Source: a virus (Duplodnaviria > Heunggongvirae > Uroviricota > Caudoviricetes). Taken from it: a stretch of 19,198 bases of DNA. Each line of letters starts with the position of its first letter. Within the stretch, counting starts at the first letter, position 1. The notes under the pieces were generated by a model. The model worked only from the letters and a program-made list of their open reading frames with translations, was not told the origin of the DNA and ran no database searches. A program made the translations under genes and the position numbers. Shown here piece after piece: positions 1 to 17,009 of this stretch. The DNA is taken from the IMG/VR virus record IMGVR_UViG_2585427781_000003, one strand, 5' to 3'.

Positions 1-447
1 CGATTTTGAGAACGACAGCGACTTCCGTCCCAGCCGTGCCAGGTGCTGCCTCAGATTCAGGTTATGCCGCTCAATTCGCTGCGTATATCGCTTGCTGATT
101 ACGTGCAGCTTTCCCTTCAGGCGGGATTCATACAGCGGCCAGCCATCCGTCATCCATATCACCACGTCAAAGGGTGACAGCAGGCTCATAAGACGCCCCA
201 GCGTCGCCATAGTGCGTTCACCGAATACGTGCGCAACAACCGTCTTCCGGAGACTGTCATACGCGTAAAACAGCCAGCGCTGGCGCGATTTAGCCCCGAC
301 ATAGCCCCACTGTTCGTCCATTTCCGCGCAGACGATGACGTCACTGCCCGGCTGTATGCGCGAGGTTACCGACTGCGGCCTGAGTTTTTTAAGTGACGTA
401 AAATCGTGTTGAGGCCAACGCCCATAATGCGGGCAGTTGCCCGGCAT
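1..447 (-). CDS. insB: IS1 transposase InsB, 3' end truncated by the window edge
   Basis: ATG at 447-445 opens a frame reading [27 protein letters not shown]..., running to the window start where it reads ...[10 protein letters not shown]. Not in the ORF track because it runs off the window. Confidence 0.9.
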
Positions 448-641
448 CCAACGCCATTCATGGCCATATCAATGATTTTCTGGTGCGTACCGGGTTGAGA
501 AGCGGTGTAAGTGAACTGCAGTTGCCATGTTTTACGGCAGTGAGAGCAGAGATAGCGCTGATGTCCGGCGGTGCTTTTGCCGTTACGCACCACCCCGTCA
601 GTAGCTGAACAGGAGGGACAGCTGATAGAAACAGAAGCCAC
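366..641 (-). CDS. insA: IS1 InsA (DNA-binding N-terminal transposase component)
   Basis: 91-aa [43 protein letters not shown]... with a Cys-rich zinc-finger-like N-terminus; TAA stop directly after the A6C motif. Confidence 0.95.
384..392 (-). promoter_or_regulatory. IS1 programmed -1 frameshift motif (TTAAAAAAC) giving the InsAB' fusion transposase
   Basis: Minus-strand TTAAAAAAC at the end of insA, overlapping the insB frame. Confidence 0.85.
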
Positions 642-696
642 TGGAGCACCTCAAAAACACCATCATACACTAAATCAGTAAGTTGGCAGCATCACC

Positions 697-2174
697 GAGG
701 ATGAGTATTCTTCTGTCGCAATGCGGGCGGCCTCCTGCTGGTTCCCTTCATCCTGTAGCGCCTTAATCTGGTTATAAGTCGCAAGTGTCAGAAAATGGTA
801 CTGATCATTAAGTTTTGATATGGCACTGACAGGATCCTTTGCAATTTCATTGAAGTCATTAACCAGTTGTTCGGTTGATATTCCTGTTACTTCGCTCGTT
901 TTTACTATCGCTGTCGTCACTTGCTCCAGCGAACTGCTCGCTACCTTTCCCGAACGCACAAGCTGATTTAATACTGCCGCCGCAGCACCAGTTGTCGAAT
1001 CAGCCGCATTCCCGGCACGTTGAGCTATATCGCCCAATTGCCCGCTGGTTGTCCCCAACTGATTTCCGGTAAGAATAAGAGATTTATTAAATTCGTCCTG
1101 CTCCTGAGAGCCTTTATAGTAAGCCAGTCCTAAGACCCCAACGGCTGCTGCGGCCAGGGTAAAAGGATTAATTAATCCCAGCACATAAGAACCTACACCT
1201 TTGATCGCCGGGCCAATCCCACCGAACATATCTTTTAGCTGGCCGCCCTGCTGCATTAACACCATAAATGGCGACTGACCAGTGGACAACCCAACAACAA
1301 TATCCGTCATTTGTGCAGGCAACATGCGCATAGCAAAAGCCGTTTGTTTTGCCGACATTCCGGTTTTGCTTAATTGTGATTGAGTAACCTCAAGCTCACT
1401 CCGCATAGCACGAAGTTTTCCAGAAAGCTCCTCATACATTTCAGGAGAAAGCATCCCCTTAGCTTTTGCTTCATTGAGCTGTTTCTGTTGTTCTACCAGA
1501 CGATTAAAAGCAGTTCCGACAGGATCAAGTTGAGCAATCAGACGTTGCAAAGCAACAACCTGTTCATCATGCGCTTTTGCTGCTTCTCGCTCTGCCTGAG
1601 CCTCTCCGGTAAGCTCTCGCCGTGTTTCCTGTATTTTTCGGCTATAATTCTCAAACTGAGAACCATTTATTTTCCCGGATGCAAACGCAGCATTAAGTTC
1701 ATCATGCTGTTGTTCAAGATTTCTTAGCGCCGCAGCCAGAGGGTCGATCTTGTCCAGCATTCTTTGAAAGGCCTGAGCCTGCGCTTCCTGCTGGGCGGCA
1801 GCAAGTTTTCCGGCCTTCTCGGCTTCTCTCTGCGCTTGCGCAACCCCGCTCAATTCCTCTGTGGTTTCATTAAGTTTACGGACAAGAAATTCATATTCTT
1901 CTTTATCAATAAGCCCTTTATCGAAAAATTTCTTTAATTCAGAATAGCGTCGACCGACAGTATCAATTGCGGCACCAACTGGATCAATAGCTGCTTTTAA
2001 TTTTGCGAGCGCGTTCTTCTCATCTTCTGTTGCCTTAGTCACTTTCCCTGCGCTATTTGCAGCAGTTTCCCCAGCCTGCGTCATTTTGACTAATGAGGAG
2101 GTCAGATTGTCAGCATTATTTTTCGCTCCAGTGCTATCAATAATTATTGCGAGACGCGAGGTTTGCTCTGCCAT
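697..2174 (-). pseudogene. Tail tape measure protein, lambda H-like, 3' end truncated by the IS1 insertion
   Basis: ATG at 2174 preceded by an AGGAG RBS. Long coiled-coil N-terminus, then a motif [39 protein letters not shown]...LILTGNQ that closely resembles the lambda gpH motif as I recall it. The frame runs into IS1 at 696 and stops at 675; only about 490 native residues remain. Confidence 0.85.
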
Positions 2175-2190
2175 TTATTAAAACTCCTGA

Positions 2191-2220
2191 CAACAAAAAA
2201 CCCACCGCGAAGTGGGTTTC
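2191..2220 (-). terminator. Terminator-like hairpin plus T-run just upstream of the tape measure start
   Basis: Minus strand reads CCCAC TTCGCG GTGGG followed by TTTTTTGTTG. It lies in a 165-nt non-coding gap between the G-T stop (2340) and the tape measure RBS. Confidence 0.5.
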
Positions 2221-2339
2221 AGGCGACATAATAGTAGATATAGCGATTACGAGGCCACGCAATGCTTTTCTCCAGGAGCATCATCGATTTAATTAAAGAC
2301 ACCATCACATCTCTGTAACAGAGTGTACGTAATTAACAA

Positions 2340-3109
2340 CTACACACACTGCTCCTGAAAATACTGGTCATCCAGTGCAAAGATCACTGCTTCAAATTCA
2401 TCGCGCTCAATCAATACCGGATGAGTGGCTAAATATTCATTTATCTCTGTCAGAGATAAAGGCAAAGGCACCCCAGCCATTCCAGCATAACGTCGGGCAC
2501 GGGATATTACCGAATAGGCGTACAACAACTCCTTAAGCACCGGGTCTATTTCTGGTTCCGGTATCGGTGGCAACCTGAGTTTTTCTCGCTTCCATCTTGC
2601 CTTTTCCCCCCTTTCTCCCCCGAACTCCGATAACCACCGCTGGGCAGCTATGGCTTTTTTATCGTATCCTGCTTCTGCTGCTCTTTACCCTGGGCGATGC
2701 TGGCTGCTTCTGCAAGGATCTGCCAGTACAACTCTGGATTCTGCTTAAGCAGCGCGATCCCTCGTTCTGCCGTATATTCCAGTGCAACCTCAACACCATT
2801 AACCAGTTCACCAACCCCTTTCCAGTCTTTCAGCAGATAACGAGCGGCATTATCAATGAGTAAATCATCAACAGAATCCACCTCGGAAACCTTTGAAATA
2901 TCAAACTCCTTCGTTCCGACGTGCAAACTGGCATCCATTTTCTCAATGTGGCGACGGATTAATGCATTACGGGAGCGATACTGATCGTTATCGCTGCTTG
3001 CCACCAACAGTTTTAACCCGTCTACAGGTTTTAAGTCCTTCATTGGCGTAAACCAGCGTTCTCCACCAATGATAATTTTCTGATTAAGAATAAACATCCA
3101 TAACCTCAT
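2340..3109 (-). CDS. G-T tail assembly chaperone fusion product (via -1 frameshift at 2654-2660)
   Basis: The 2340-2573 ORF has no ATG (its first start-like codon is TTG), is in the -1 frame relative to G, and is contiguous and stop-free with the slip site. This is the architecture of lambda G/GT. Confidence 0.7.
2648..3109 (-). CDS. Tail assembly chaperone, lambda G-like
   Basis: 153-aa ORF directly downstream of the major tail gene. Ends ...DTIKKP-TAG, with the slippery heptamer in its last codons. Start may be ATG 3109 or ATG 3097. Confidence 0.8.
   Translation of the reverse strand: MRLWMFILNQKIIIGGERWFTPMKDLKPVDGLKLLVASSDNDQYRSRNALIRRHIEKMDASLHVGTKEFDISKVSEVDSVDDLLIDNAARYLLKDWKGVGELVNGVEVALEYTAERGIALLKQNPELYWQILAEAASIAQGKEQQKQDTIKKP
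2654..2660 (-). promoter_or_regulatory. Programmed -1 ribosomal frameshift site (A AAA AAG) for the G-T fusion
   Basis: Zero-frame codons ATA AAA AAG CCA TAG; the -1 frame is open from here (GCC ATA GCT GCC CAG CGG ...) with no stop until 2340. Confidence 0.75.
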
Positions 3110-3157: not shown

Positions 3158-4120
3158 TCAACTAATCGCCTCAGCACTGGCTTTTGCGATCACGGCAGCC
3201 GGGGAATTTTTTTTTCTGGTTATCGTAGGTGCTTCATCTGCTGCGGTAATGCTCAATTGAACCTGGATAATGTCGCTATTACCCCCATCAGGCCATTCAC
3301 CTGACACCTGAACCTTCAGGAAACTGAAAGTGTATGCCCCCTCTCCATTCGAAAGCGTGAAGCTGAACGGAACTGTTTCTCCAGTCAGTGTTTTACTCCA
3401 GATTTCCCACGCGGCTTTAGACCATGAAAGCGTCACCGTACCGGACGGTGTAAAAGTAGTCGGAATATTTGCTCCTGCATAAGGCGAGCCAGTCCCGATA
3501 CAACGCTGTGTCTGGAGTTTGTTATCGAACTGAATATCAAAACTGTCGATACAAAAACCGTTACCTCCGGCAACACCATTCAGGCTTACTGCTGAAACCT
3601 CCTTAAACGAATAACGTAGCTTTCCTGCACTATCCACAGGTTCGCCTTTGATAAAATTCGTATCATCGGCCTTTGATTCCCAGTCCAGTCCGGCAAAGGT
3701 TACGGTCGCTGTAATATCGCCGTCGTTAGGGATCTGCATTTTCCATGAGCCAACCTGCGCTCCTCTGACGACAGAGGCAATTCCGACATCGGACGCATAG
3801 GTCGCCAGAGAAAATGTTATTCGCTCATTCCCCATTGTCAGAGAATCGCCTGACCATTCCGCGCCGAAACAGGATGCAAGAAAATCATCATGTTGACCCC
3901 AGCGAAATTTGGTACCAACATCACCGCCGACATCCACAGTGCCAGGCGTCGCCCCCTGAGCCATCCGGGAGCCACCAATCTCATTATTTTCGCCTTTATT
4001 CTGGGTGGGTTTTACTCCCCAGCTTGTGCGTTTTAATAAACTCCAGTCACCACTTGCTGGCGTAGTGCCTGCAACCGTCTCCCGGATAAATGCCGAGATA
4101 ACCTTTGCACCTGAACTCAC
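3158..4120 (-). CDS. Major tail (tube) protein
   Basis: 320-aa ORF, GTG start at 4120 preceded by AGGAGG (ATAGGAGGCTCCTGTG). Sits between the tail terminator-like gene and the G/GT chaperone. Confidence 0.75.
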   Translation of the reverse strand: MSSGAKVISAFIRETVAGTTPASGDWSLLKRTSWGVKPTQNKGENNEIGGSRMAQGATPGTVDVGGDVGTKFRWGQHDDFLASCFGAEWSGDSLTMGNERITFSLATYASDVGIASVVRGAQVGSWKMQIPNDGDITATVTFAGLDWESKADDTNFIKGEPVDSAGKLRYSFKEVSAVSLNGVAGGNGFCIDSFDIQFDNKLQTQRCIGTGSPYAGANIPTTFTPSGTVTLSWSKAAWEIWSKTLTGETVPFSFTLSNGEGAYTFSFLKVQVSGEWPDGGNSDIIQVQLSITAADEAPTITRKKNSPAAVIAKASAEAIS

Positions 4121-4146: not shown

Positions 4147-4539
4147 CTAGAGCGCGCGATATGGAATTTGAAGATTAAGCTGGAACCAGCCATTCTTTTC
4201 GCCAACGGCTATTGAGGAAACAGCCTGGTAACTGAGACGATCGTCATCCTGAAACTCAAACAGTTCCCGCAATTTATCGGCTGTCTCAGTAATGAGTTTT
4301 GAACCAGAACCTGCGGGGACAAATAACTGAATAATGATTATCCCCGTGCGATAAACAATCGGCCCCGCGCCAATTTCATTAACTCCAGCCTGCCCGGGAA
4401 TATTACTTAACCGCGCCCAGATTAACTTACCGGAAGGATCGAACGTTGGCGCGTTCGGATACAATACGTCTTTTCCATCAATAATCGTCTGTGCCGTCAT
4501 TCTGGAAATAACCGTATTTCTGATTTCAGTAAACGTCAT
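4147..4539 (-). CDS. Tail terminator / tail-tube completion protein (putative)
   Basis: 130-aa ORF; start ATG overlaps the upstream stop as ATGA (translational coupling). Assignment is by position immediately before the major tail gene. Confidence 0.6.
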   Translation of the reverse strand: MTFTEIRNTVISRMTAQTIIDGKDVLYPNAPTFDPSGKLIWARLSNIPGQAGVNEIGAGPIVYRTGIIIIQLFVPAGSGSKLITETADKLRELFEFQDDDRLSYQAVSSIAVGEKNGWFQLNLQIPYRAL

Positions 4540-4916: not shown

Positions 4917-5300
4917 TTACGCTCTCCTTAACTGGATAGAGTAAACTGATGCGGAAGGATCTACACTTGCTGTAATTACCTCGTATCGTTGTAACTGCCT
5001 TGATACAGGATCATAAATCTCAATAATATGGTCGACAGCTGGTTTATCCGTAACCTCGCATACCAGAGCGGTTAATTTAAGGTCACCATGCAAAATATTA
5101 ATCCCATCAATTCTGCCCAGCTTATAACGTGTCAACACGCCTCGCCCGGTATAGATTGCGGTGGATTCGCCGCCAGTTTCCGTCACAGGATCCCAGTGCC
5201 GGTGCGTAACGTAAGAACCAGAAAAATCACTCACGGCGTCCGCTAAATCCTCATCAAAAGCAGCGGCAACCTCTGACTGAATCTCTTCACGAAGCCCCAT
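4917..5300 (-). CDS. Head-tail joining / head closure protein (putative)
   Basis: 127-aa ORF in the neck gene block; start overlaps the upstream stop as TAATG. Confidence 0.55.
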   Translation of the reverse strand: MGLREEIQSEVAAAFDEDLADAVSDFSGSYVTHRHWDPVTETGGESTAIYTGRGVLTRYKLGRIDGINILHGDLKLTALVCEVTDKPAVDHIIEIYDPVSRQLQRYEVITASVDPSASVYSIQLRRA

Positions 5301-5302
5301 TA

Positions 5303-5694
5303 TCCCCCCCTCACAACCCTGACTTGTGAGCGACTAAGTCCGTACGGTTTCAGCAGTGCTATCGCAAGCTGTAAATCGGGTTCAAGCAATGCAGTGCTGT
5401 TTGCTGGCAACTCAGAAAATGATTTCGATACACTGACCCCGTCAGCCGACACGGCTTTACTGATAACAACGCCAGAATCATTTTTCTGCTGAAACAACTT
5501 ACCGAATGAGGCAATTCTGGCTGCATATGCTCCCGCAAGTTTTACCTCTTCCGGAATACGGGATGGGTTAATTTTCAGGTTGAGCCATTAAGCCAGGCAT
5601 TAGCCATTAAAACAGCTTTATTTTTAGCGTTCTCACTCGTCCAGGCGTTCCCAAACGCATTATCAACGTCATCACAGGTCACGTAAGTGATCAT
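5303..5694 (-). pseudogene. Head-tail adaptor-like gene split by a frameshift
   Basis: ATG at 5694 gives a 39-aa frame ending TGA at 5575. A second frame is open from 5587 to 5303 (the 65-aa track ORF is its TTG-initiated tail). The break coincides with a tandem 8-mer, minus-strand TGGCTTAA TGGCTCAA. Confidence 0.6.
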
Positions 5695-5697
5695 GTG

Positions 5698-10528: not shown

Positions 10529-11830
10529 TTAAATCCGAAGTGATGTGACTCTTCCGGTCGGTTTGACAATAGGGAATTGCTTAACGATGAAATAACCTCC
10601 GGCATCATTCGGGTGATCATTGCCAGATTTTTTATCAGGCTCCCCCTTCTCATCCCAGACCTGTTGCTCCAGAGATTCGGCATATAACGGGCAACGCTTC
10701 ACATTAACTTTATAGCGACGCTCACCATTGGCATTGCAGAACATTGCATTCATTGAGTTAACGCGATCTTTTACTGGCGGGGTCGAGCTGTTCACCACAA
10801 CGTTAAAACCAGCCTGCTTAAGCTGGGCTATATCCGTCGTACTTGCGTTACTTGATTTTCTGGAATCCCCGGAAGCATCTGGATAAATATAAATTTCCCT
10901 CACTTTCCGGTAATCATTCCCATCATACAGCCAGAAGCGTTCTTTAATGATGCGGATCATATCCGGCGTATCGTAGGCATTGATGATTTCAGTTACCGCA
11001 CATGGAAGCCCCAAACGCAGCACATGGACGATTCCCGCCATCTTTCCAACGTTAAAATCCATCCCAATATAAATCGGCTCCCCTGGCTGCTCCACTTCTT
11101 CGCAATTATTCAGTTTCCGGTCAAACTGATGGTAAACAGTACCACTTGTCAGGTTAGTAAACTGTCCTCGAAGATAGGCTTTAATCAGCTCTGGAGGGTA
11201 TGATTCAAGAAGCGAAGGAATGTAATCTGCTGGCAGGTTCTTTTCATTATCGAAAGTAGATGCCTGCACCAGACCATACAGTGAGGCCAGCTCTGTTTTT
11301 TCACGCACGGCTTTAACAAACTGCTCGTAGACAAATTTGAATCCTTCCGGCGTGGTTGTAACGTCAATACCGTTGCGAAGTCCATCAATCTTATAACGCA
11401 TACGTGCAATTATCTTGCGCCACGCCGTTCTGGCTTTTTCCTTCGGCAAAATGTCCAGTTCATCCACCAACGCATTACCAATTTTGAAATCGACGATCGT
11501 TTGTGGCTTCTCCATCGATCTGCAGATAGTGGTTCCCCGATACTGGCGTCCGTAATAAAAGTGAACCTCTTTATTTCCCTCATTAATTTTTACGTTCAAT
11601 CCCCAGTCAGCAGCAACTTCTTCCACTGTAGGGTAAAAAATATCGCGAATTTGGGGATACGTTGGCGCAAAATATCCCTGATTTATACCTGGATGCTCCC
11701 AAATCCCCTTGCATATGCCGCCACACCCAACCCATGTTTTGCCCGAGCCAAAACCAGCAATATAGGCTTTAAATTTATGGGGCATTGAAAGAAATCGCGC
11801 CTGAGGCACATTAAGCGTCGGAGAGATCAT
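10529..11830 (-). CDS. Terminase large subunit
   Basis: Walker A-like AGFGSGKT near the N-terminus and a nuclease-type C-terminal half. Start chosen at ATG 11830 (AAGGAG 8 nt upstream); the track ORF begins at GTG 11839. Confidence 0.88.
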   Translation of the reverse strand: MISPTLNVPQARFLSMPHKFKAYIAGFGSGKTWVGCGGICKGIWEHPGINQGYFAPTYPQIRDIFYPTVEEVAADWGLNVKINEGNKEVHFYYGRQYRGTTICRSMEKPQTIVDFKIGNALVDELDILPKEKARTAWRKIIARMRYKIDGLRNGIDVTTTPEGFKFVYEQFVKAVREKTELASLYGLVQASTFDNEKNLPADYIPSLLESYPPELIKAYLRGQFTNLTSGTVYHQFDRKLNNCEEVEQPGEPIYIGMDFNVGKMAGIVHVLRLGLPCAVTEIINAYDTPDMIRIIKERFWLYDGNDYRKVREIYIYPDASGDSRKSSNASTTDIAQLKQAGFNVVVNSSTPPVKDRVNSMNAMFCNANGERRYKVNVKRCPLYAESLEQQVWDEKGEPDKKSGNDHPNDAGGYFIVKQFPIVKPTGRVTSLRI

Positions 11831-12905
11831 CTTCATCACTCCTTACTCTGGCATCAACCACATTAATATTGATCGCCACAGGCTGGGGATGTTCATTATC
11901 TTCCACCGTTTCGATCTCTTTGCGCAGCTTCTGGTTTTCCATTCTGCGCCGTTCAATTTCCAGTTCCTGTAGCCGTTTATCTGCACATAAAGCCCCGCCA
12001 GCAGAAAACAAACGCAACAATTCACGCCGGGCGGCAGCCTTATCCTCCAGCAGGATCTCAACGCCGAATTTTCCGAATTTTGCCCCTGCATATAATTGCC
12101 GCGCATCCCCATCAAGCAGAGTGGTATCAGCCATATAAAGCTGTCCCGTTCCCTCACCGCAGCACTTCGGGCAGTCCGGATTGGGTATGGCGTTATCAAC
12201 AAAGCCGAGGCCTCCATATTCCGGTTCGGGTTTGCCATCTCTGGAAGCCTGCGCCGCTGCCTTGTCGAATTCTGCTATATCGCGCCACTGGTAGAGATGA
12301 TTCTCGCCCCAGCAATAACGGCAGTTAACACGGCGAAATTGTGCAAGCTGATTGGGGTCGGCCAGGACAATAGCCATCAACTGACTCACTAGTAAATCCA
12401 GGTCTGCGGTATAGCGTTTCTGGTACTGATTGCGGAAGTAGCTGATAGCGCGAAAAACCCTGGCATTTCTAAGCATACGACTGGCGTTGCTGTTAGCTGT
12501 CGCACCTTGCCCCTCATAACCGGCTAGTCGGTACGCCTCTGTCGGCTTTTTACCCTGAGCAACAAGCATCGCAAACTTAGCCTGCTGGTCAGAAATGCCG
12601 AATTCATCGGGACAGAACGAAAATTCCTCCGCGTCGCCCTCATTCAGGCCCGCATCGAATACTGGCTTTTTTTCCTGAGATTTTTCGTTCCGCTTTTGTG
12701 CAGTCTGCGCAGATTTTTTCTGCGCACTTTTTTGCGCAGTTTTGCACATTTCTGTCTGCGCATTTTTCGGAGTTTTTTTGATGTAACGACGGGCTGTTGC
12801 GTAATTCAGTCCCCTTGCTTCACACCATGCCACCGGAGATATACCGGAGCGGGTGTATTCAGCAATATACTCCTGCTGCAACGCCCCCCAGTCCGGTCTG
12901 CTCAT
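11811..12905 (-). CDS. Terminase small subunit (unusually long, 364 aa)
   Basis: N-terminal HTH-like segment, an AMLVAQGKKPTEAYRLAGY motif typical of small terminase subunits, and a 20-nt overlap with the terminase large subunit start. Confidence 0.8.
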   Translation of the reverse strand: MSRPDWGALQQEYIAEYTRSGISPVAWCEARGLNYATARRYIKKTPKNAQTEMCKTAQKSAQKKSAQTAQKRNEKSQEKKPVFDAGLNEGDAEEFSFCPDEFGISDQQAKFAMLVAQGKKPTEAYRLAGYEGQGATANSNASRMLRNARVFRAISYFRNQYQKRYTADLDLLVSQLMAIVLADPNQLAQFRRVNCRYCWGENHLYQWRDIAEFDKAAAQASRDGKPEPEYGGLGFVDNAIPNPDCPKCCGEGTGQLYMADTTLLDGDARQLYAGAKFGKFGVEILLEDKAAARRELLRLFSAGGALCADKRLQELEIERRRMENQKLRKEIETVEDNEHPQPVAININVVDARVRSDEDDLSDA

Positions 12906-14028: not shown

Positions 14029-14812
14029 ATTCCTCCTCCTCACCACCATGCATGATCTCCACCATGCGCTGCGTCATCCGGACAAATCCATTTTCAATAG
14101 CCTGCTGATAATCAATGATCACCAGCGCCGACTCCTCGAAAAAACACTGAATTTCAGAGGGGGCGTGAGCGTAATAGTCCGCAATTCTGCTGAAATTAAA
14201 CACCGTGTGACGTTCTGCCGCACACAGGAGGAATTTCTCAATATCAGGCTCAAGGGACGCCGAACGTATCCGGCTGATCAGCTCCTGAGTTTTCGTATCG
14301 TCGTACAGTTCACTGATATCCGGTTTACCGCCCGACGGCTCATAAACAGGCGTATCAATTTTCGTCGTATACGGCTCCTCCTCATTTCCTGTACCGGGCA
14401 AAACATCCGTCAACAGTTCATCAATTTCTGTCGGGATGAAGCCTGTCAGGGAGACATCAAAATCAGCATTGATTAGGTCCGACAGCTCCATCCGCAACAG
14501 ATCTTCATCCCAGCCAGCATTCATCGGCAGGCGATTATCTGCCAGGCGGTACGCCTTTTTCTGCTCATCCGTCAGGCCAGACAGAACAATGACCGGAACA
14601 GAATCCATTTTGAGCATTTCAGCCGCCATAACACGACCGTGACCCGCAATAATTTCGCCCTTTTCGTCAATCAGCACCGGATTAGTCCAGCCGAATTGCT
14701 TAATACTTTCTACCAGTTGTGCCACCTGCTCAGGGCTGTGCGTCCTGGCGTTGTGCGCATACGGTGACAATTCTTGTAATGGGCGATAGACTATCTTTAA
14801 TTTCTCGCTCAT
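14021..14812 (-). CDS. ParB-like nuclease domain protein
   Basis: 263 aa; the N-terminal ~100 aa (YRPLQELSPYAHNARTHSPEQVAQLVESIKQFGWTNPVLIDEKGEIIAGHGR) matches the ParB/sulfiredoxin-type N-domain pattern; acidic C-terminus. ATG at 14812 with an AAGG RBS. Confidence 0.78.
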   Translation of the reverse strand: MSEKLKIVYRPLQELSPYAHNARTHSPEQVAQLVESIKQFGWTNPVLIDEKGEIIAGHGRVMAAEMLKMDSVPVIVLSGLTDEQKKAYRLADNRLPMNAGWDEDLLRMELSDLINADFDVSLTGFIPTEIDELLTDVLPGTGNEEEPYTTKIDTPVYEPSGGKPDISELYDDTKTQELISRIRSASLEPDIEKFLLCAAERHTVFNFSRIADYYAHAPSEIQCFFEESALVIIDYQQAIENGFVRMTQRMVEIMHGGEEEEYA

Positions 14813-14825
14813 ACAGCCTTGCTTT

Positions 14826-14863
14826 ATGAATAAAACGCACCCCAGCAGCCAGTGCTACTGGGG
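14826..14863 (-). terminator. Possible terminator downstream of trkG
   Basis: Minus strand CCCCAG (12-nt loop) CTGGGG then TGCGTTTTATTCAT, between the trkG stop (14950) and the ParB-like start. The large loop and spacer make it weak. Confidence 0.35.
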
Positions 14864-14949
14864 ACGGAGGGGTTGCTGGTAAAGTTAGGTATTGGATCAA
14901 TGAGTGAGTCAACATAATATTAAACTCACAATTATAAATCAGCCATATA

Positions 14950-16407
14950 TTAGGAGCGCCAAAAAAAACCTGAAAACAATATAATAACAGGATAAATTTC
15001 AAGGCGACCAAGAATCATAGCTATGCACATTAAACATTTTGCAATGTCATTAAGCACTCCGAATGACGATGCAGTAGCCCCAAAACCTAATCCCATATTA
15101 TTAATACATGCAGCCACTGTTGCAAATGATGTAAGAAAATCATATCCCATACCATTTAACACCAGTATAAAAAACACCGTGAAGAGAGTATAAAGAAAAA
15201 AGAAACTCCATACAGACCTCATTACACGATCTGTAACTATCTTCCCTCCTACATTTACACTCAACAACGCTCTGGGATGAGAAAGCTGATTTATCTCGTG
15301 TTTGCTTTGTTTGAAAAGTATAAGAAATCGAAGTGACTTAATTCCACCACAAGTTGAACCTATACATCCCCCAAAGAAACTTGACAACAGCAAAAACACT
15401 ATCGTGTGCGTGGGCCAACTTGCATAATCCTGCGTAGCTAAACCATTATCAGTGAGCATGGAGCTGGCAAGAAAAAACGAATGAATAAAACTTCCATGCA
15501 AGTCATACATACCTATATGCCAGACCTGGAAAGAGGTAACAATGATCACCCCTAAGGCTATTAACAGAAAGAAACGAAGTTCAATATCTCTGATTAAAGG
15601 TTTTATCGTTTTCCTGCTAATAACAATATACCAAAGAGTGAAGTTGAAAGCCGATAGCAGGGAAAAAGAACCAGCCACCAGCTCAACCAAATAGTTATTA
15701 AAATATCCGATACTCTCGCTATGAGTTGAGAAACCACCAAGCGAAACTGTGGAAATCCCGTGACAAATAGCATCAAACAAAGGCATTCCTGCAAGTCTAT
15801 AACAGACAATACAAGCAATACCTAATAAAGAATAAGTTATCCACAGTGTCCGTGACGTATCGGCCAGGCGGGGAGTGAGTTTGTCATCCTTAAATGGCCC
15901 CGGCATTTCTGACTGATAAAGCTTTGCACCACCAATACCCAATAATGGCAATACAGCAACCGCCAGAACAATAACTCCTAAACCACCTATAAAATTTAAC
16001 TGTGACCGATAGTACAAATATGCCCGAGGTAATGAACTAACATCATCAATTACAGTTGCTCCTGTTGTTGTTATTCCAGAAACCCCTTCAAACAGAGCAT
16101 CAATGAACGTTAAATTAAGTTCTGAGTCAATCCATAAAGGGAATGCACTAATAACAGAAAACAAAATCCAAAACATTACAATTATAATAAACCCATCACG
16201 GGTACGTAATTGAATGCCAGATTTCTTAGTTGTATACCACGCTCCGCCACCAATGCAAAAAAATATAACGAAAGTTATAAAGAAAACGAACAGGCTTTTT
16301 TCTTTATAAAACAATGCTACAACCATTGGTGGCAACATTGAAAGACTATAGAGCCAAACCAGGAACCCACACATATGAGTAACAACTCTTACATGAGATG
16401 TATTCAT
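14950..16407 (-). CDS. trkG: TrkH/TrkG-family potassium uptake membrane protein
   Basis: 485 aa from ATG 16407 (MNTSHVRVVTHMCGFLVWLYSL...); polytopic membrane protein with repeated GxG-type selectivity-filter-like loops. The sequence matches what I recall of TrkG from the E. coli K-12 Rac prophage. Visibly AT-rich relative to its neighbours. Confidence 0.93.
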   Translation of the reverse strand: MNTSHVRVVTHMCGFLVWLYSLSMLPPMVVALFYKEKSLFVFFITFVIFFCIGGGAWYTTKKSGIQLRTRDGFIIIVMFWILFSVISAFPLWIDSELNLTFIDALFEGVSGITTTGATVIDDVSSLPRAYLYYRSQLNFIGGLGVIVLAVAVLPLLGIGGAKLYQSEMPGPFKDDKLTPRLADTSRTLWITYSLLGIACIVCYRLAGMPLFDAICHGISTVSLGGFSTHSESIGYFNNYLVELVAGSFSLLSAFNFTLWYIVISRKTIKPLIRDIELRFFLLIALGVIIVTSFQVWHIGMYDLHGSFIHSFFLASSMLTDNGLATQDYASWPTHTIVFLLLSSFFGGCIGSTCGGIKSLRFLILFKQSKHEINQLSHPRALLSVNVGGKIVTDRVMRSVWSFFFLYTLFTVFFILVLNGMGYDFLTSFATVAACINNMGLGFGATASSFGVLNDIAKCLMCIAMILGRLEIYPVIILFSGFFWRS

Positions 16408-16544
16408 ATCTAAATATTCTTTCAATTATAACCACCTTGCTGCAATATTATGATTATACTGTATAAAATTTAACTCCTCTTAGATCTTACTTCACTGTTC
16501 CTTATGAAACAATCATCAAAATGAATCATATTGTAGTTAAGATT

Positions 16545-17009
16545 TTACTTTAAACACTGCTCGGTTATGTATTGCTGAGCACCTTCAAGTTGGGCCTGCA
16601 TCATTACCAGTCGTTCCCGGAGGGTGAAATAATCCCGTTCAGCGGTGTCTGCCAGTCGGGGGGAGGCTGCATTATCCACGCCGGAGGCGGTGGTGGCTTC
16701 ACGCACTGACTGACAGACTGCTTTGATGTGCAACCGACGACGACCAGCGGCAACATCATCACGCAGAACATCATTTTCAGCTTTCGCATCAGCTAACTCC
16801 TTCGTGTATTTTGCATCGAGCGCAGCAACATCACGCTGACGCATCTGCATGTCAGTAATTGCCGCGTTCGCCAGCTTCAGTTCTCTGGCATTTTTGTCGC
16901 GCTGTTCTTTGTAGGCGATGGCGTTATCACGGTAATGATTAACACCCCATGACAGGCAGACGACGATGCAGATAACCAGAGCGGAGATAATCGCGGTTAC
17001 TCTGTTCAT
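16545..17009 (-). CDS. Rz i-spanin
   Basis: ATG at 17009 overlaps the endolysin stop (ATGA). N-terminal TM segment ([16 protein letters not shown]) followed by a coiled-coil periplasmic domain. Confidence 0.9.
16604..16789 (-). CDS. Rz1 o-spanin lipoprotein, embedded in Rz in the +1 frame
   Basis: 61 aa, [20 protein letters not shown] lipobox, proline-rich ([16 protein letters not shown]), lying entirely inside Rz. Confidence 0.9.

What the first reader, a model, noticed from the sequence alone, without database searches (positions are those of the whole stretch)
2340..3109. G / G-T tail chaperone with a canonical A AAA AAG -1 slippery site
Seen in sequence: the chaperone ORF ends ATA AAA AAG CCA TAG, and the -1 frame is open from the heptamer for about 105 codons to the stop at 2340 with no ATG. 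The slip site is followed by a G-rich tract (GGGGGAGAAAGGGGGGAAAAGG) that could act as a stimulatory element. Established knowledge: lambda G/GT and many siphovirus chaperones use this mechanism. The heptamer is the same class as the dnaX slippery sequence rather than lambda's G GGA AAG.
Basis: partly seen in the sequence, partly recalled or inferred. Interest (0 to 1): 0.45.

Follow-up and report, generated by a model that had tools for sequence, protein, structure and literature searches.

The report
Rac prophage tail chaperone frameshift (ydaY)
This is the ordinary two-for-one tail assembly chaperone gene of a Rac-type E. coli/Shigella prophage (gene ydaY), where a few ribosomes slip back one base at A AAA AAG to make a longer protein; the class is textbook, and this site was, as far as I recall, proposed in 2003.

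Summary
On the minus strand a chaperone ORF (3109/3097..2648) ends GAT ACG ATA AAA AAG CCA TAG. A AAA AAG (2660..2654) is in the correct X XXY YYZ phase. The -1 frame is open for 106 codons to TAG 2342..2340 (chance about 1e-4).

The pair lies between the tail tube gene and the tape-measure gene of a Rac-family prophage. The upstream ORF is ydaY.

Across 182 related loci from more than 12 genera, the downstream ORF is in the -1 frame in all but one disrupted draft contig. The homologous site carries A AAA AAG or lambda's G GGA AAG. The zero-frame stop moves about, and the -1 frame is under purifying selection from the heptamer onward. The conceptual fusion matches a phage "tail assembly chaperone" family in one stretch across the junction.

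The G-rich tract is not a supported stimulator. It encodes a conserved FGGE.GEK motif, lies 32 nt downstream, and no conserved RNA structure exists.

This copy is defective: IS1 interrupts the tape-measure gene. Public annotations miss the frameshift. From memory, Gurvich et al. 2003 named ydaY as a candidate, and Xu et al. 2004 described the class.

Ordinary; low interest.

The parts
2648..3109 (-). G-type tail assembly chaperone ORF (= ydaY of Rac-family prophages). It is 153 aa from ATG 3109, but the likely true start is ATG 3097 (149 aa). Zero-frame stop TAG at 2650..2648.
   Evidence: sequence. (annotated ydaY / YdaY in E. coli genomes and phages). (homologues start at the Met aligned with 3097). 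(model with pLDDT 74; best named BFVD matches are tape-measure / tail assembly chaperones, E 3e-4 to 1e-2, TM about 0.4-0.5).
2654..2660 (-). Slippery heptamer A AAA AAG in X XXY YYZ phase, 3 nt before the zero-frame stop codon.
   Evidence: The homologous site carries A AAA AAG or G GGA AAG in 111 of 112 distinct related sequences.
2340..2660 (-). T segment: the -1 frame from the heptamer, 106 codons, stop TAG 2342..2340. It has no start-type codon before TTG 2573. The predicted fusion G-T is 255 aa from ATG 3109, or 251 aa from ATG 3097.
   Evidence: T-frame column entropy by codon position is 0.67 / 0.51 / 1.27. dN/dS is 0.07 (L082) and dS is saturated in the other comparisons; the other two frames give dN/dS above 1. 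phrog_313 spans the junction, and phrog_1189 and Pfam Phage_TAC_18 (18 bits, below cut-off) match the T part.
2627..2653 (-). Local hairpin immediately 3' of the heptamer (11 pairs, several G-U, about -11.5 kcal/mol). It is not unusually stable and not conserved.
   Evidence: z = -0.45. The consensus fold of 17 lineages is -2.9 kcal/mol with no covariation.
2600..2621 (-). It is coding sequence for the FGGERGEK motif of the T frame, not a supported stimulator.
   Evidence: the amino-acid motif is conserved while the G runs are replaced by GGC GGC GAG CAG GGC and similar in other genera. The tract starts 32 nt after the heptamer.
3158..4120 (-). Tail tube (major tail) protein gene, immediately upstream of G.
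   Evidence: Pfam Phage_tube_2, E 9e-32. PGAP name 'phage tail tube protein'.
675..2174 (-). Tape-measure protein gene, immediately downstream of T. It is truncated here at about codon 493 by an IS1 insertion at 696/697; intact relatives encode 1077 aa.
   Evidence: Pfam TMP_2, E 3e-82..
2197..2220 (-). Terminator-like hairpin plus U run in the 165-nt gap between the T stop and the tape-measure ATG.
   Evidence: Analogous hairpins of different sequence follow the T stop in three other genera.

Best explanation
The region encodes the tail assembly chaperone pair of a Rac-family siphovirus prophage of E. coli/Shigella.

Most ribosomes translate G (YdaY, 149-153 aa) and stop at TAG 2650..2648.

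A minority slip. With tRNA-Lys on AAA in the P site and on AAG in the A site, both tRNAs move back one base on A AAA AAG (2660..2654). Translation then continues in the -1 frame for another 104 codons to TAG 2342..2340. The product is a 251-255 aa G-T fusion (...QDTIKK|AIAAQRWLSEF...).

By analogy with lambda gpG/gpGT, the G part binds the tape-measure protein encoded just downstream. The T part recruits the tube protein encoded just upstream. A low fixed G-T:G ratio is what the slip delivers. Neither protein ends up in the virion.

The slip appears to rely on the heptamer alone. No conserved stimulatory RNA structure or correctly spaced upstream Shine-Dalgarno sequence was found, so a low efficiency of a few percent is expected.

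Shown here: the anatomy, the synteny, family membership of the fusion, conservation of slipperiness, and coding selection on the -1 frame.

Inferred: that the fusion protein is actually made, its ratio, and its binding partners.

In this particular copy the tail module is dead, because IS1 sits in the tape-measure gene. The site is therefore a preserved relic of a functional phage signal.
For: Anatomy and chance:
- Heptamer phase, stop positions and the open -1 frame were read directly.
- P(open for 106 codons or more) is about 1.3e-4.
- It is the only one of 23 in-phase heptamers followed by a long -1 ORF.

Synteny:
- Tail terminator 4539..4147, tube 4120..3158, G/T, then tape measure 2174..675.

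Family:
- The conceptual fusion matches phrog_313 'tail assembly chaperone' over residues 5-253 in one stretch across the junction (E 6e-51).
- Distant relatives in Acinetobacter and Pseudomonas phages are annotated as tail assembly chaperones.
- The G model's best named fold matches are tape-measure / tail assembly chaperones.

Conservation:
- 182 loci give 112 distinct T ORFs, and T lies in the -1 frame in 111 of them; the exception is L060.
- 111 of the 112 have a canonical in-phase heptamer at the same position. 110 also keep the -1 frame continuous with T.
- A AAA AAG occurs in Escherichia, Shigella, Citrobacter, Klebsiella-type contigs, Siccibacter, Providencia, Dryocola, Scandinavium and Entomohabitans.
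- G GGA AAG occurs in Raoultella, Serratia, Pantoea and Rosenbergiella. Acinetobacter phage TCUAN1 (L185), a distant relative outside the 182-locus set, also has it.
- The amino acid changes (KK to GK) but the slipperiness is kept.
- The zero-frame stop varies (3, 21, 75 or 105 nt after the heptamer), while the -1 ORF stays 93-121 codons.

Coding selection:
- It begins at the heptamer, 29 codons before the first possible start codon.
- TTG 2573, the start used by PGAP for its 77-aa 'hypothetical protein', is CTC/CTA/CTT/CTG in other genera (alignment).

General mechanism:
- The lambda gpG/gpGT role and the shiftiness of A_AAA_AAG in E. coli are described in PMC5009743.
Against: - No experimental evidence for the fusion product was obtainable here.
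- There is no detectable sequence similarity to lambda gpG or gpT themselves. Pfam's Phage_TAC_18 match is below its cut-off (18 versus 27 bits). There are no PDB relatives by sequence or fold.
- No conserved stimulator was found, so the efficiency is unknown.
- One relative (Pectobacterium, L014) has a non-canonical G GGG AAG. Erwinia phage Gungnir39 has only C GCA AAG TAA. A perfect heptamer is therefore not absolutely kept.
- This copy of the prophage is defective: IS1 in the tape-measure gene and a 1-nt deletion in a connector-like gene. Any product made here has no tail to build.
Confidence: 0.9

Rival explanations
1. Two independent genes. The downstream ORF is translated on its own from TTG 2573, as PGAP annotates it (77-aa 'hypothetical protein'), and the heptamer is incidental.
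For: PGAP and GenBank phage records annotate two separate CDSs and no slippage. phrog_1189 is a family of such T-only ORF calls.
Against: - The 29 codons between the heptamer and TTG 2573 are under clear purifying selection in the -1 frame.
- These codons align as protein across genera (KALEAQKWLSEFGGE.GEKAKW).
- TTG 2573 is a non-start Leu codon (CTC/CTA/CTT/CTG) in other genera.
- No start-type codon exists in the -1 frame between its opening at 2684 and 2573.
- No Shine-Dalgarno sequence precedes TTG 2573 (sequence).
- phrog_313 holds colinear fused proteins.
Confidence: 0.03
2. The fusion is made by transcriptional slippage. RNA polymerase adds an extra A in the A6 run, and ribosomes do not slip.
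For: The site contains a run of six A residues. Polymerase slippage on A runs is a known route to -1 products in some bacterial genes and IS elements (PMC5009743).
Against: - Six A residues is short for efficient polymerase slippage (general knowledge).
- Several lineages replace the run with G GGA AAG, which has no long homopolymer but is a classic ribosomal heptamer.
- The heptamer keeps its codon phase in all lineages. Phase matters for tRNA re-pairing but not for polymerase slippage.
Confidence: 0.04
3. A decayed gene. A single ancestral G-T ORF was broken by a frameshift mutation in a dying prophage.
For: This prophage copy is defective (IS1 in the tape-measure gene; 1-nt deletion in a neighbouring gene). 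One E. coli contig encodes an in-frame G-T fusion (P0001).
Against: - The two-frame arrangement with an in-phase slippery heptamer is found in 110 of 112 distinct sequences from more than 12 genera. These include isolated phages (SPF_0923, the vB_EcoS series, Klebsiella phages).
- P0001 is a one-off internal deletion that removes part of G.
- The zero-frame stop position varies while the heptamer position does not.
Confidence: 0.01

Closest known systems
Phage lambda gpG / gpGT tail assembly chaperones (Levin, Hendrix & Casjens 1993; Xu, Hendrix & Duda 2004, 2013, 2014; summarised in PMC5009743)
   Same: - Position between the major tail/tube gene and the tape-measure gene.
- A short upstream ORF, with a downstream ORF in the -1 frame that has no start codon of its own.
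- A canonical slippery heptamer a few codons before the stop of the upstream ORF.
- Some members of this very family use lambda's own heptamer, G GGA AAG.
   Different: - No detectable sequence similarity to lambda G or T.
- The E. coli/Shigella lineage uses A AAA AAG.
- A 165-nt gap with a terminator-like hairpin separates T from the tape-measure gene, whereas in lambda T and H overlap.
ydaY of the E. coli K-12 Rac cryptic prophage
   Same: It is the same gene. K-12 carries window 2999..1240 at 99.9% identity (the 2999..2200 stretch that holds the heptamer and T ORF is 100% identical). From memory (the paper is not held in the library), Gurvich et al. 2003, EMBO J 22:5941, named ydaY as a candidate for utilised A_AAA_AAG -1 frameshifting.
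   Different: K-12 ydaY is a 5'-truncated remnant. An 11.5-kb deletion joins ynaK (window 14559) to window 2999 and removes the head and most tail genes. The window holds the full-length gene in its native structural operon.
E. coli dnaX frameshift cassette
   Same: An identical heptamer, A AAA AAG, read by the single tRNA-Lys of E. coli (PMC5009743).
   Different: dnaX combines the heptamer with an internal Shine-Dalgarno sequence about 10 nt upstream and a strong stem-loop a few nt downstream, and reaches about 50% efficiency (general knowledge). Here the only SD-like element (AGGA) is 6 nt upstream and is missing in 6 of 17 lineages. There is no conserved or unusually stable downstream structure and no Rfam match.
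IS1 insA-insAB' frameshift
   Same: A second -1 slippery run, A AAA AAC, lies in the same window at 390..384 (-), inside the IS1 copy that interrupts the tape-measure gene.
   Different: It belongs to an unrelated element with an unrelated function (transposase production), and its heptamer ends in C.

Membership tests
Frameshift-expressed tail assembly chaperone pair (lambda G/GT type) | Lies between the major tail (tube) gene and the tape-measure gene, on the same strand | tested here: met
   Tube gene 4120..3158 (Phage_tube_2, E 9e-32) and tape-measure gene 2174..675 (TMP_2, E 3e-82) flank the pair.
Frameshift-expressed tail assembly chaperone pair (lambda G/GT type) | Two overlapping ORFs, with the second in the -1 frame and without its own start codon or ribosome-binding site | tested here: met
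   The -1 frame opens at 2684. The first start-type codon is TTG 2573, 29 codons after the heptamer, and it is not conserved as a start in other genera.
Frameshift-expressed tail assembly chaperone pair (lambda G/GT type) | A canonical X XXY YYZ heptamer in phase within the overlap, conserved among homologues | tested here: met
   A AAA AAG or G GGA AAG sits at the homologous site in 111 of 112 distinct related sequences. The zero-frame stop position varies.
Frameshift-expressed tail assembly chaperone pair (lambda G/GT type) | The downstream frame is protein-coding from the slip site onward | tested here: met
   Third-position entropy is 1.27 against 0.67 and 0.51. dN/dS is 0.07 or dS is saturated in the T frame, and dN/dS is above 1 in the other two frames.
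Frameshift-expressed tail assembly chaperone pair (lambda G/GT type) | The protein belongs to a recognised tail assembly chaperone family | tested here: met
   phrog_313 'tail assembly chaperone', E 6e-51, residues 5-253 of the fusion in one stretch. BFVD fold matches to tape-measure / tail assembly chaperones, E 3e-4 to 1e-2, TM about 0.4-0.5.
Frameshift-expressed tail assembly chaperone pair (lambda G/GT type) | The fusion protein is actually produced at a low ratio and is needed for tail assembly | not testable with these tools
   This needs a reporter assay, mass spectrometry or phage genetics.
Sequence homologues of lambda gpG and gpT | Detectable sequence or profile similarity to lambda G and T | tested here: not met
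   hhalign of the G alignment against lambda G gives probability 0.1%. BLASTP of T against lambda T gives no alignment. No lambda-type Pfam family appears.
Pfam Phage_TAC_18 (PF23812) | Score at or above the gathering cut-off of 27 bits | tested here: not met
   18 bits, E 0.003, on residues 183-251 (the T part). Homologues carry a precomputed PF27119 that is not in the local Pfam copy.
dnaX-type frameshift cassette | A AAA AAG heptamer | tested here: met
   2660..2654.
dnaX-type frameshift cassette | An upstream Shine-Dalgarno stimulator at about 10-14 nt and a stable downstream stem-loop at about 5-8 nt | tested here: not met
   AGGA lies only 6 nt upstream and is absent in 6 of 17 lineages. 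Downstream folding gives z = 0.07 and -0.45 and no consensus structure. There is no Rfam hit.

The most novel reading that the evidence does not exclude
The E. coli/Shigella lineage may have acquired lineage-specific tuning elements that change the G-T:G ratio relative to sister lineages. Candidates are the hairpin that starts right after the heptamer (2653..2627) and the G5/G6 runs at 2621..2600, acting for example through a two-tier G-quadruplex or ribosome queuing. Alternatively, the slip site kept intact in the truncated K-12 ydaY remnant may serve a host function. Nothing found here supports either idea. The elements are not conserved, not unusually stable, and badly spaced.
Probability: 0.04. 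Interest if true: 0.35.

Novelty: already known. Interest (0 to 1): 0.1.

Why it matters
The practical value is for annotation. NCBI's pipeline and the GenBank phage records call this locus 'YdaY' (from an internal TTG) plus a 77-aa 'hypothetical protein', with no ribosomal slippage. This applies to more than 1000 E. coli genomes and to several isolated phages. The comparative data here justify annotating a tail assembly chaperone with a joined -1 frameshift product.

The swap between A AAA AAG and G GGA AAG within one orthologous family is a clean natural illustration of selection for slipperiness rather than for the encoded amino acids.

It adds nothing conceptually new to phage tail assembly or to recoding.

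Tried and rejected
1. G-rich tract as stimulator: rejected. It is coding sequence for a conserved motif, its G runs are not conserved, and it lies 32 nt from the heptamer.
2. Conserved downstream RNA structure: not found.
   - The single-sequence fold of 101 nt gives z = 0.07, and 50-nt folds of 16 lineages mostly give |z| below 1.
   - Only the two Rosenbergiella copies are stable.
   - RNAalifold gives -2.9 kcal/mol and no covariation.
3. Rfam: no family matches at gathering score over the whole window. Only a spurious hit (E = 6.4) appears at the permissive threshold around the site.
4. Homology to lambda G/T: none found.
5. PDB: no relatives by sequence profile or by Foldseek.
6. NCBIfam: no match for the fusion.
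7. Literature check of the ydaY frameshift report.
   - Gurvich et al. 2003 could not be retrieved by DOI or by my recollected PMC id.
   - No held paper links ydaY with frameshifting.
   - The prior-art statement therefore rests on my memory plus the review's summary of that study (B464 in PMC5009743).
8. Pseudomonas phage Aurca01 (L183): the slip site could not be placed with the annotated G frame. I did not pursue it.
9. A9 run at the end of the tube gene (3215..3207) as a second recoding site: rejected. It is lineage-specific, and the -1 ORF after it is only 14 codons.

Full report
**What is in the sequence**

All genes in the window run on the minus strand.
- The ORF 3109..2648 (153 aa from ATG 3109) ends GAT ACG ATA AAA AAG CCA TAG.
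- The heptamer A AAA AAG occupies 2660..2654, in the X XXY YYZ phase needed for tandem tRNA slippage.
- The -1 frame opens at 2684, only 8 codons before the heptamer. It stays open for 106 codons to TAG 2342..2340.
- The first codon in that frame that could serve as a start is TTG 2573, 29 codons after the heptamer. The only ATG is an internal Met at 2480..2478.
- The likely real start of the upstream ORF is ATG 3097, not 3109. Every homologue aligns its first Met there, and GAGG lies 6 nt upstream.

**Is it more than chance?**

Stop codons make up 8.1% of -1-frame codons in the other genes of the window. An open run of 106 codons therefore has a probability of about 1.3e-4, and the longest other -1 run is 73 codons. 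There are 23 in-phase X XXY YYZ heptamers in the minus-strand ORFs. Only this one sits at the end of its ORF and is followed by a long -1 ORF (106 codons against 35, 30, 23 or fewer).

**Context and identity**

- The gene order is tail terminator (4539..4147), tail tube (4120..3158, Pfam Phage_tube_2, E 9e-32), the G/T pair, then tape measure (2174..675, TMP_2, E 3e-82).
- The region is 97.8-99.9% identical to ten GenBank phage records: nine induced E. coli phages of the vB_EcoS series and Salmonella phage SPF_0923.
- It also matches prophages in 1074 of 5426 complete E. coli genomes. There the upstream ORF is named ydaY.
- It is the structural module of a Rac-family prophage. E. coli K-12 carries window 2999..1240 and 16989..14559 at more than 99.7% identity, joined by an 11.5-kb deletion. 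K-12 ydaY is therefore a 5'-truncated remnant of this gene.
- NCBI's annotation gives 'YdaY' (119 aa from an internal TTG) plus a 77-aa 'hypothetical protein' from TTG 2573, with no slippage. The phage records do likewise.

**Evidence that the two frames make one product**

*Family match.* The conceptual fusion (...QDTIKK|AIAAQRW...) matches PHROG 313, 'tail assembly chaperone'. The match covers residues 5-253 against profile positions 13-246 in a single stretch, E 6e-51. That family therefore contains colinear fused proteins.

*Conservation.* I collected 182 related loci, which give 112 distinct T ORFs.
- T lies in the -1 frame relative to G in 111 of the 112. The exception, draft contig L060, has two 1-nt deletions downstream that shift T into the G frame.
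- A canonical in-phase heptamer sits at the homologous position in 111 of the 112.
- It is A AAA AAG in Escherichia, Shigella, Citrobacter, Klebsiella-type contigs, Siccibacter, Providencia, Dryocola, Scandinavium and Entomohabitans.
- It is G GGA AAG, lambda's heptamer, in Raoultella, Serratia, Pantoea and Rosenbergiella. Acinetobacter phage TCUAN1, a distant relative outside this set, also has it.
- The encoded residues change (KK to GK), but the slipperiness is kept.
- The zero-frame stop wanders (3, 21, 75 or 105 nt after the heptamer), while the -1 ORF stays 93-121 codons.
- The one sequence without a canonical heptamer is Pectobacterium L014, which has G GGG AAG.
- Erwinia phage Gungnir39, a relative outside the 182-locus set, has only C GCA AAG TAA at the homologous site.

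*Coding selection.* In the 35 codons that follow the heptamer, column entropy by T-frame codon position is 0.67 / 0.51 / 1.27. dN/dS is 0.07 for the closest informative pair, and dS is saturated for the rest. The other two frames give dN/dS above 1. This stretch lies upstream of any start codon. TTG 2573 is an ordinary CTN Leu codon in other genera. Independent initiation therefore cannot explain the conservation.

**Stimulators**

- The 101 nt from the heptamer fold no better than shuffles (z = 0.07).
- A hairpin begins immediately after the heptamer (2653..2627, about -11.5 kcal/mol), but it is unexceptional (z = -0.45). It is not reproduced in most lineages.
- RNAalifold over 17 lineages gives -2.9 kcal/mol with essentially no covariation.
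- The G-rich tract starts 32 nt after the heptamer and encodes the conserved T-frame motif FGGE.GEK. Its G runs become GGC GGC GAG CAG GGC and similar elsewhere.
- An AGGA lies 6 nt upstream. This is closer than the 10-14 nt at which SD-like elements stimulate -1 shifts in dnaX (general knowledge), and 6 of 17 lineages lack it.
- Rfam has no match.

The site therefore looks like a bare heptamer, as in lambda. A low efficiency is expected. That suits a chaperone pair whose long form is needed in small amounts (PMC5009743).

**Relation to known families**

- In function and architecture this is a lambda G/GT-type chaperone pair. By sequence it is not a detectable homologue of lambda G or T.
- Pfam's Phage_TAC_18 matches only below its cut-off.
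- There is no PDB relative by sequence or by fold.
- An AlphaFold model of G has mean pLDDT 74 and pTM 0.73. Its best named matches in BFVD are tape-measure / tail assembly chaperones from Caulobacter, Salmonella 9NA, Stenotrophomonas and E. coli K1H/Seurat phages. Scores are modest (E 3e-4 to 6e-2, TM 0.4-0.5).
- The heptamer is the dnaX heptamer, but the dnaX stimulators are absent.

**Prior knowledge**

The class was established for lambda and generalised by Xu, Hendrix & Duda 2004. That paper is listed in the reference list of PMC5009743 and its survey of 28 phages is summarised in PMC10274946. The gpG/gpGT roles are described in PMC5009743.

From memory, Gurvich et al. 2003 (EMBO J 22:5941) surveyed A_AAA_AAG in E. 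coli K-12 and named ydaY, with pheL, as a new candidate for utilised frameshifting. The review summarises that survey (B464). I could not retrieve the paper itself, and no held paper links ydaY to frameshifting. I therefore rate the finding as already known, with that caveat. If my recollection were wrong, it would be a new member of a known kind.

**State of this copy**

Window 1..696 is an IS1A element inserted into the tape-measure gene at about codon 493 of 1077. A neighbouring connector-like gene carries a 1-nt deletion relative to phage SPF_0923. The frameshift signal is thus intact in a prophage that can no longer build tails.

**Verdict**

The suggested G-tract stimulator is not supported. 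The finding is ordinary and, I believe, already described, so its interest is low. Its main use is to correct a widespread annotation gap.

Noticed in passing
window 1-696 (junction at 696/697); IS1 slippery run at 390..384 (-): An IS1A copy is inserted into the tape-measure gene and truncates it at about codon 493 of 1077. The IS1 carries its own well-known -1 frameshift run, A AAA AAC (insA-insAB'), so the window holds two unrelated -1 slip sites.
   Followed up: partly
window about 5584 (-), in the gene at 5300..5695: There is a 1-nt deletion (GGCTTCA to GGC-TCA) relative to Salmonella phage SPF_0923. It splits a 131-aa head-tail connector-like gene that PGAP calls 'protein singed, frameshifted' in strain SLK172. 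This is a second lesion showing that this prophage copy is defective.
   Followed up: partly
window 2220..2197 (-): A terminator-like hairpin (GAAACCCAC TTCG CGGTGGGTTT) followed by a U run lies in the 165-nt gap between the T stop and the tape-measure start, within what should be one late operon. Hairpins of different sequence plus U runs follow the T stop in Citrobacter (L006), Pectobacterium (L014) and Scandinavium (L020). It may act as an attenuator or an RNA-stability element.
   Followed up: partly
window 14559 and 2999: These are the end points of the E. coli K-12 Rac deletion. K-12 sequence matches window 16989..14559 (trkG, ynaK) and 2999..1240 (3' ydaY, T ORF, 5' tape measure), so K-12 has lost the 11.5 kb in between (terminase, head and most tail genes).
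   Followed up: yes
window 3215..3207 (-): A run of nine A residues lies 17 codons before the end of the tail tube gene. The -1 ORF after it is only 14 codons. The run is A7 or absent in other lineages, so it is probably incidental, although A9 is long enough for polymerase slippage.
   Followed up: partly
window 12672..12666 (-), in ORF 11811..12905: This is a second in-phase A AAA AAG. The -1 frame closes after 10 codons, so it looks like an incidental shifty site of the kind reported to be common in E. coli genes.
   Followed up: partly
L014:2920-2926; L184 around 2985-2995; protein P0001: Three variants occur at the homologous slip site. Pectobacterium odoriferum has G GGG AAG. Erwinia phage Gungnir39 has C GCA AAG TAA, where only the A-site tRNA can re-pair and a stop codon follows directly. 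One E. coli contig encodes a permanent in-frame G-T fusion created by an internal deletion (...AEAGYDKKAIAAQRW...).
   Followed up: partly
window 3097 versus 3109 (-); PGAP start at 3007: Three different starts are in use for the chaperone gene. The longest ORF starts at ATG 3109. ATG 3097 is supported by homologues and by a GAGG 6 nt upstream, and is the start used in phage SPF_0923. PGAP uses an internal TTG at 3007, which gives a 119-aa YdaY of the same length as the truncated K-12 protein.
   Followed up: partly
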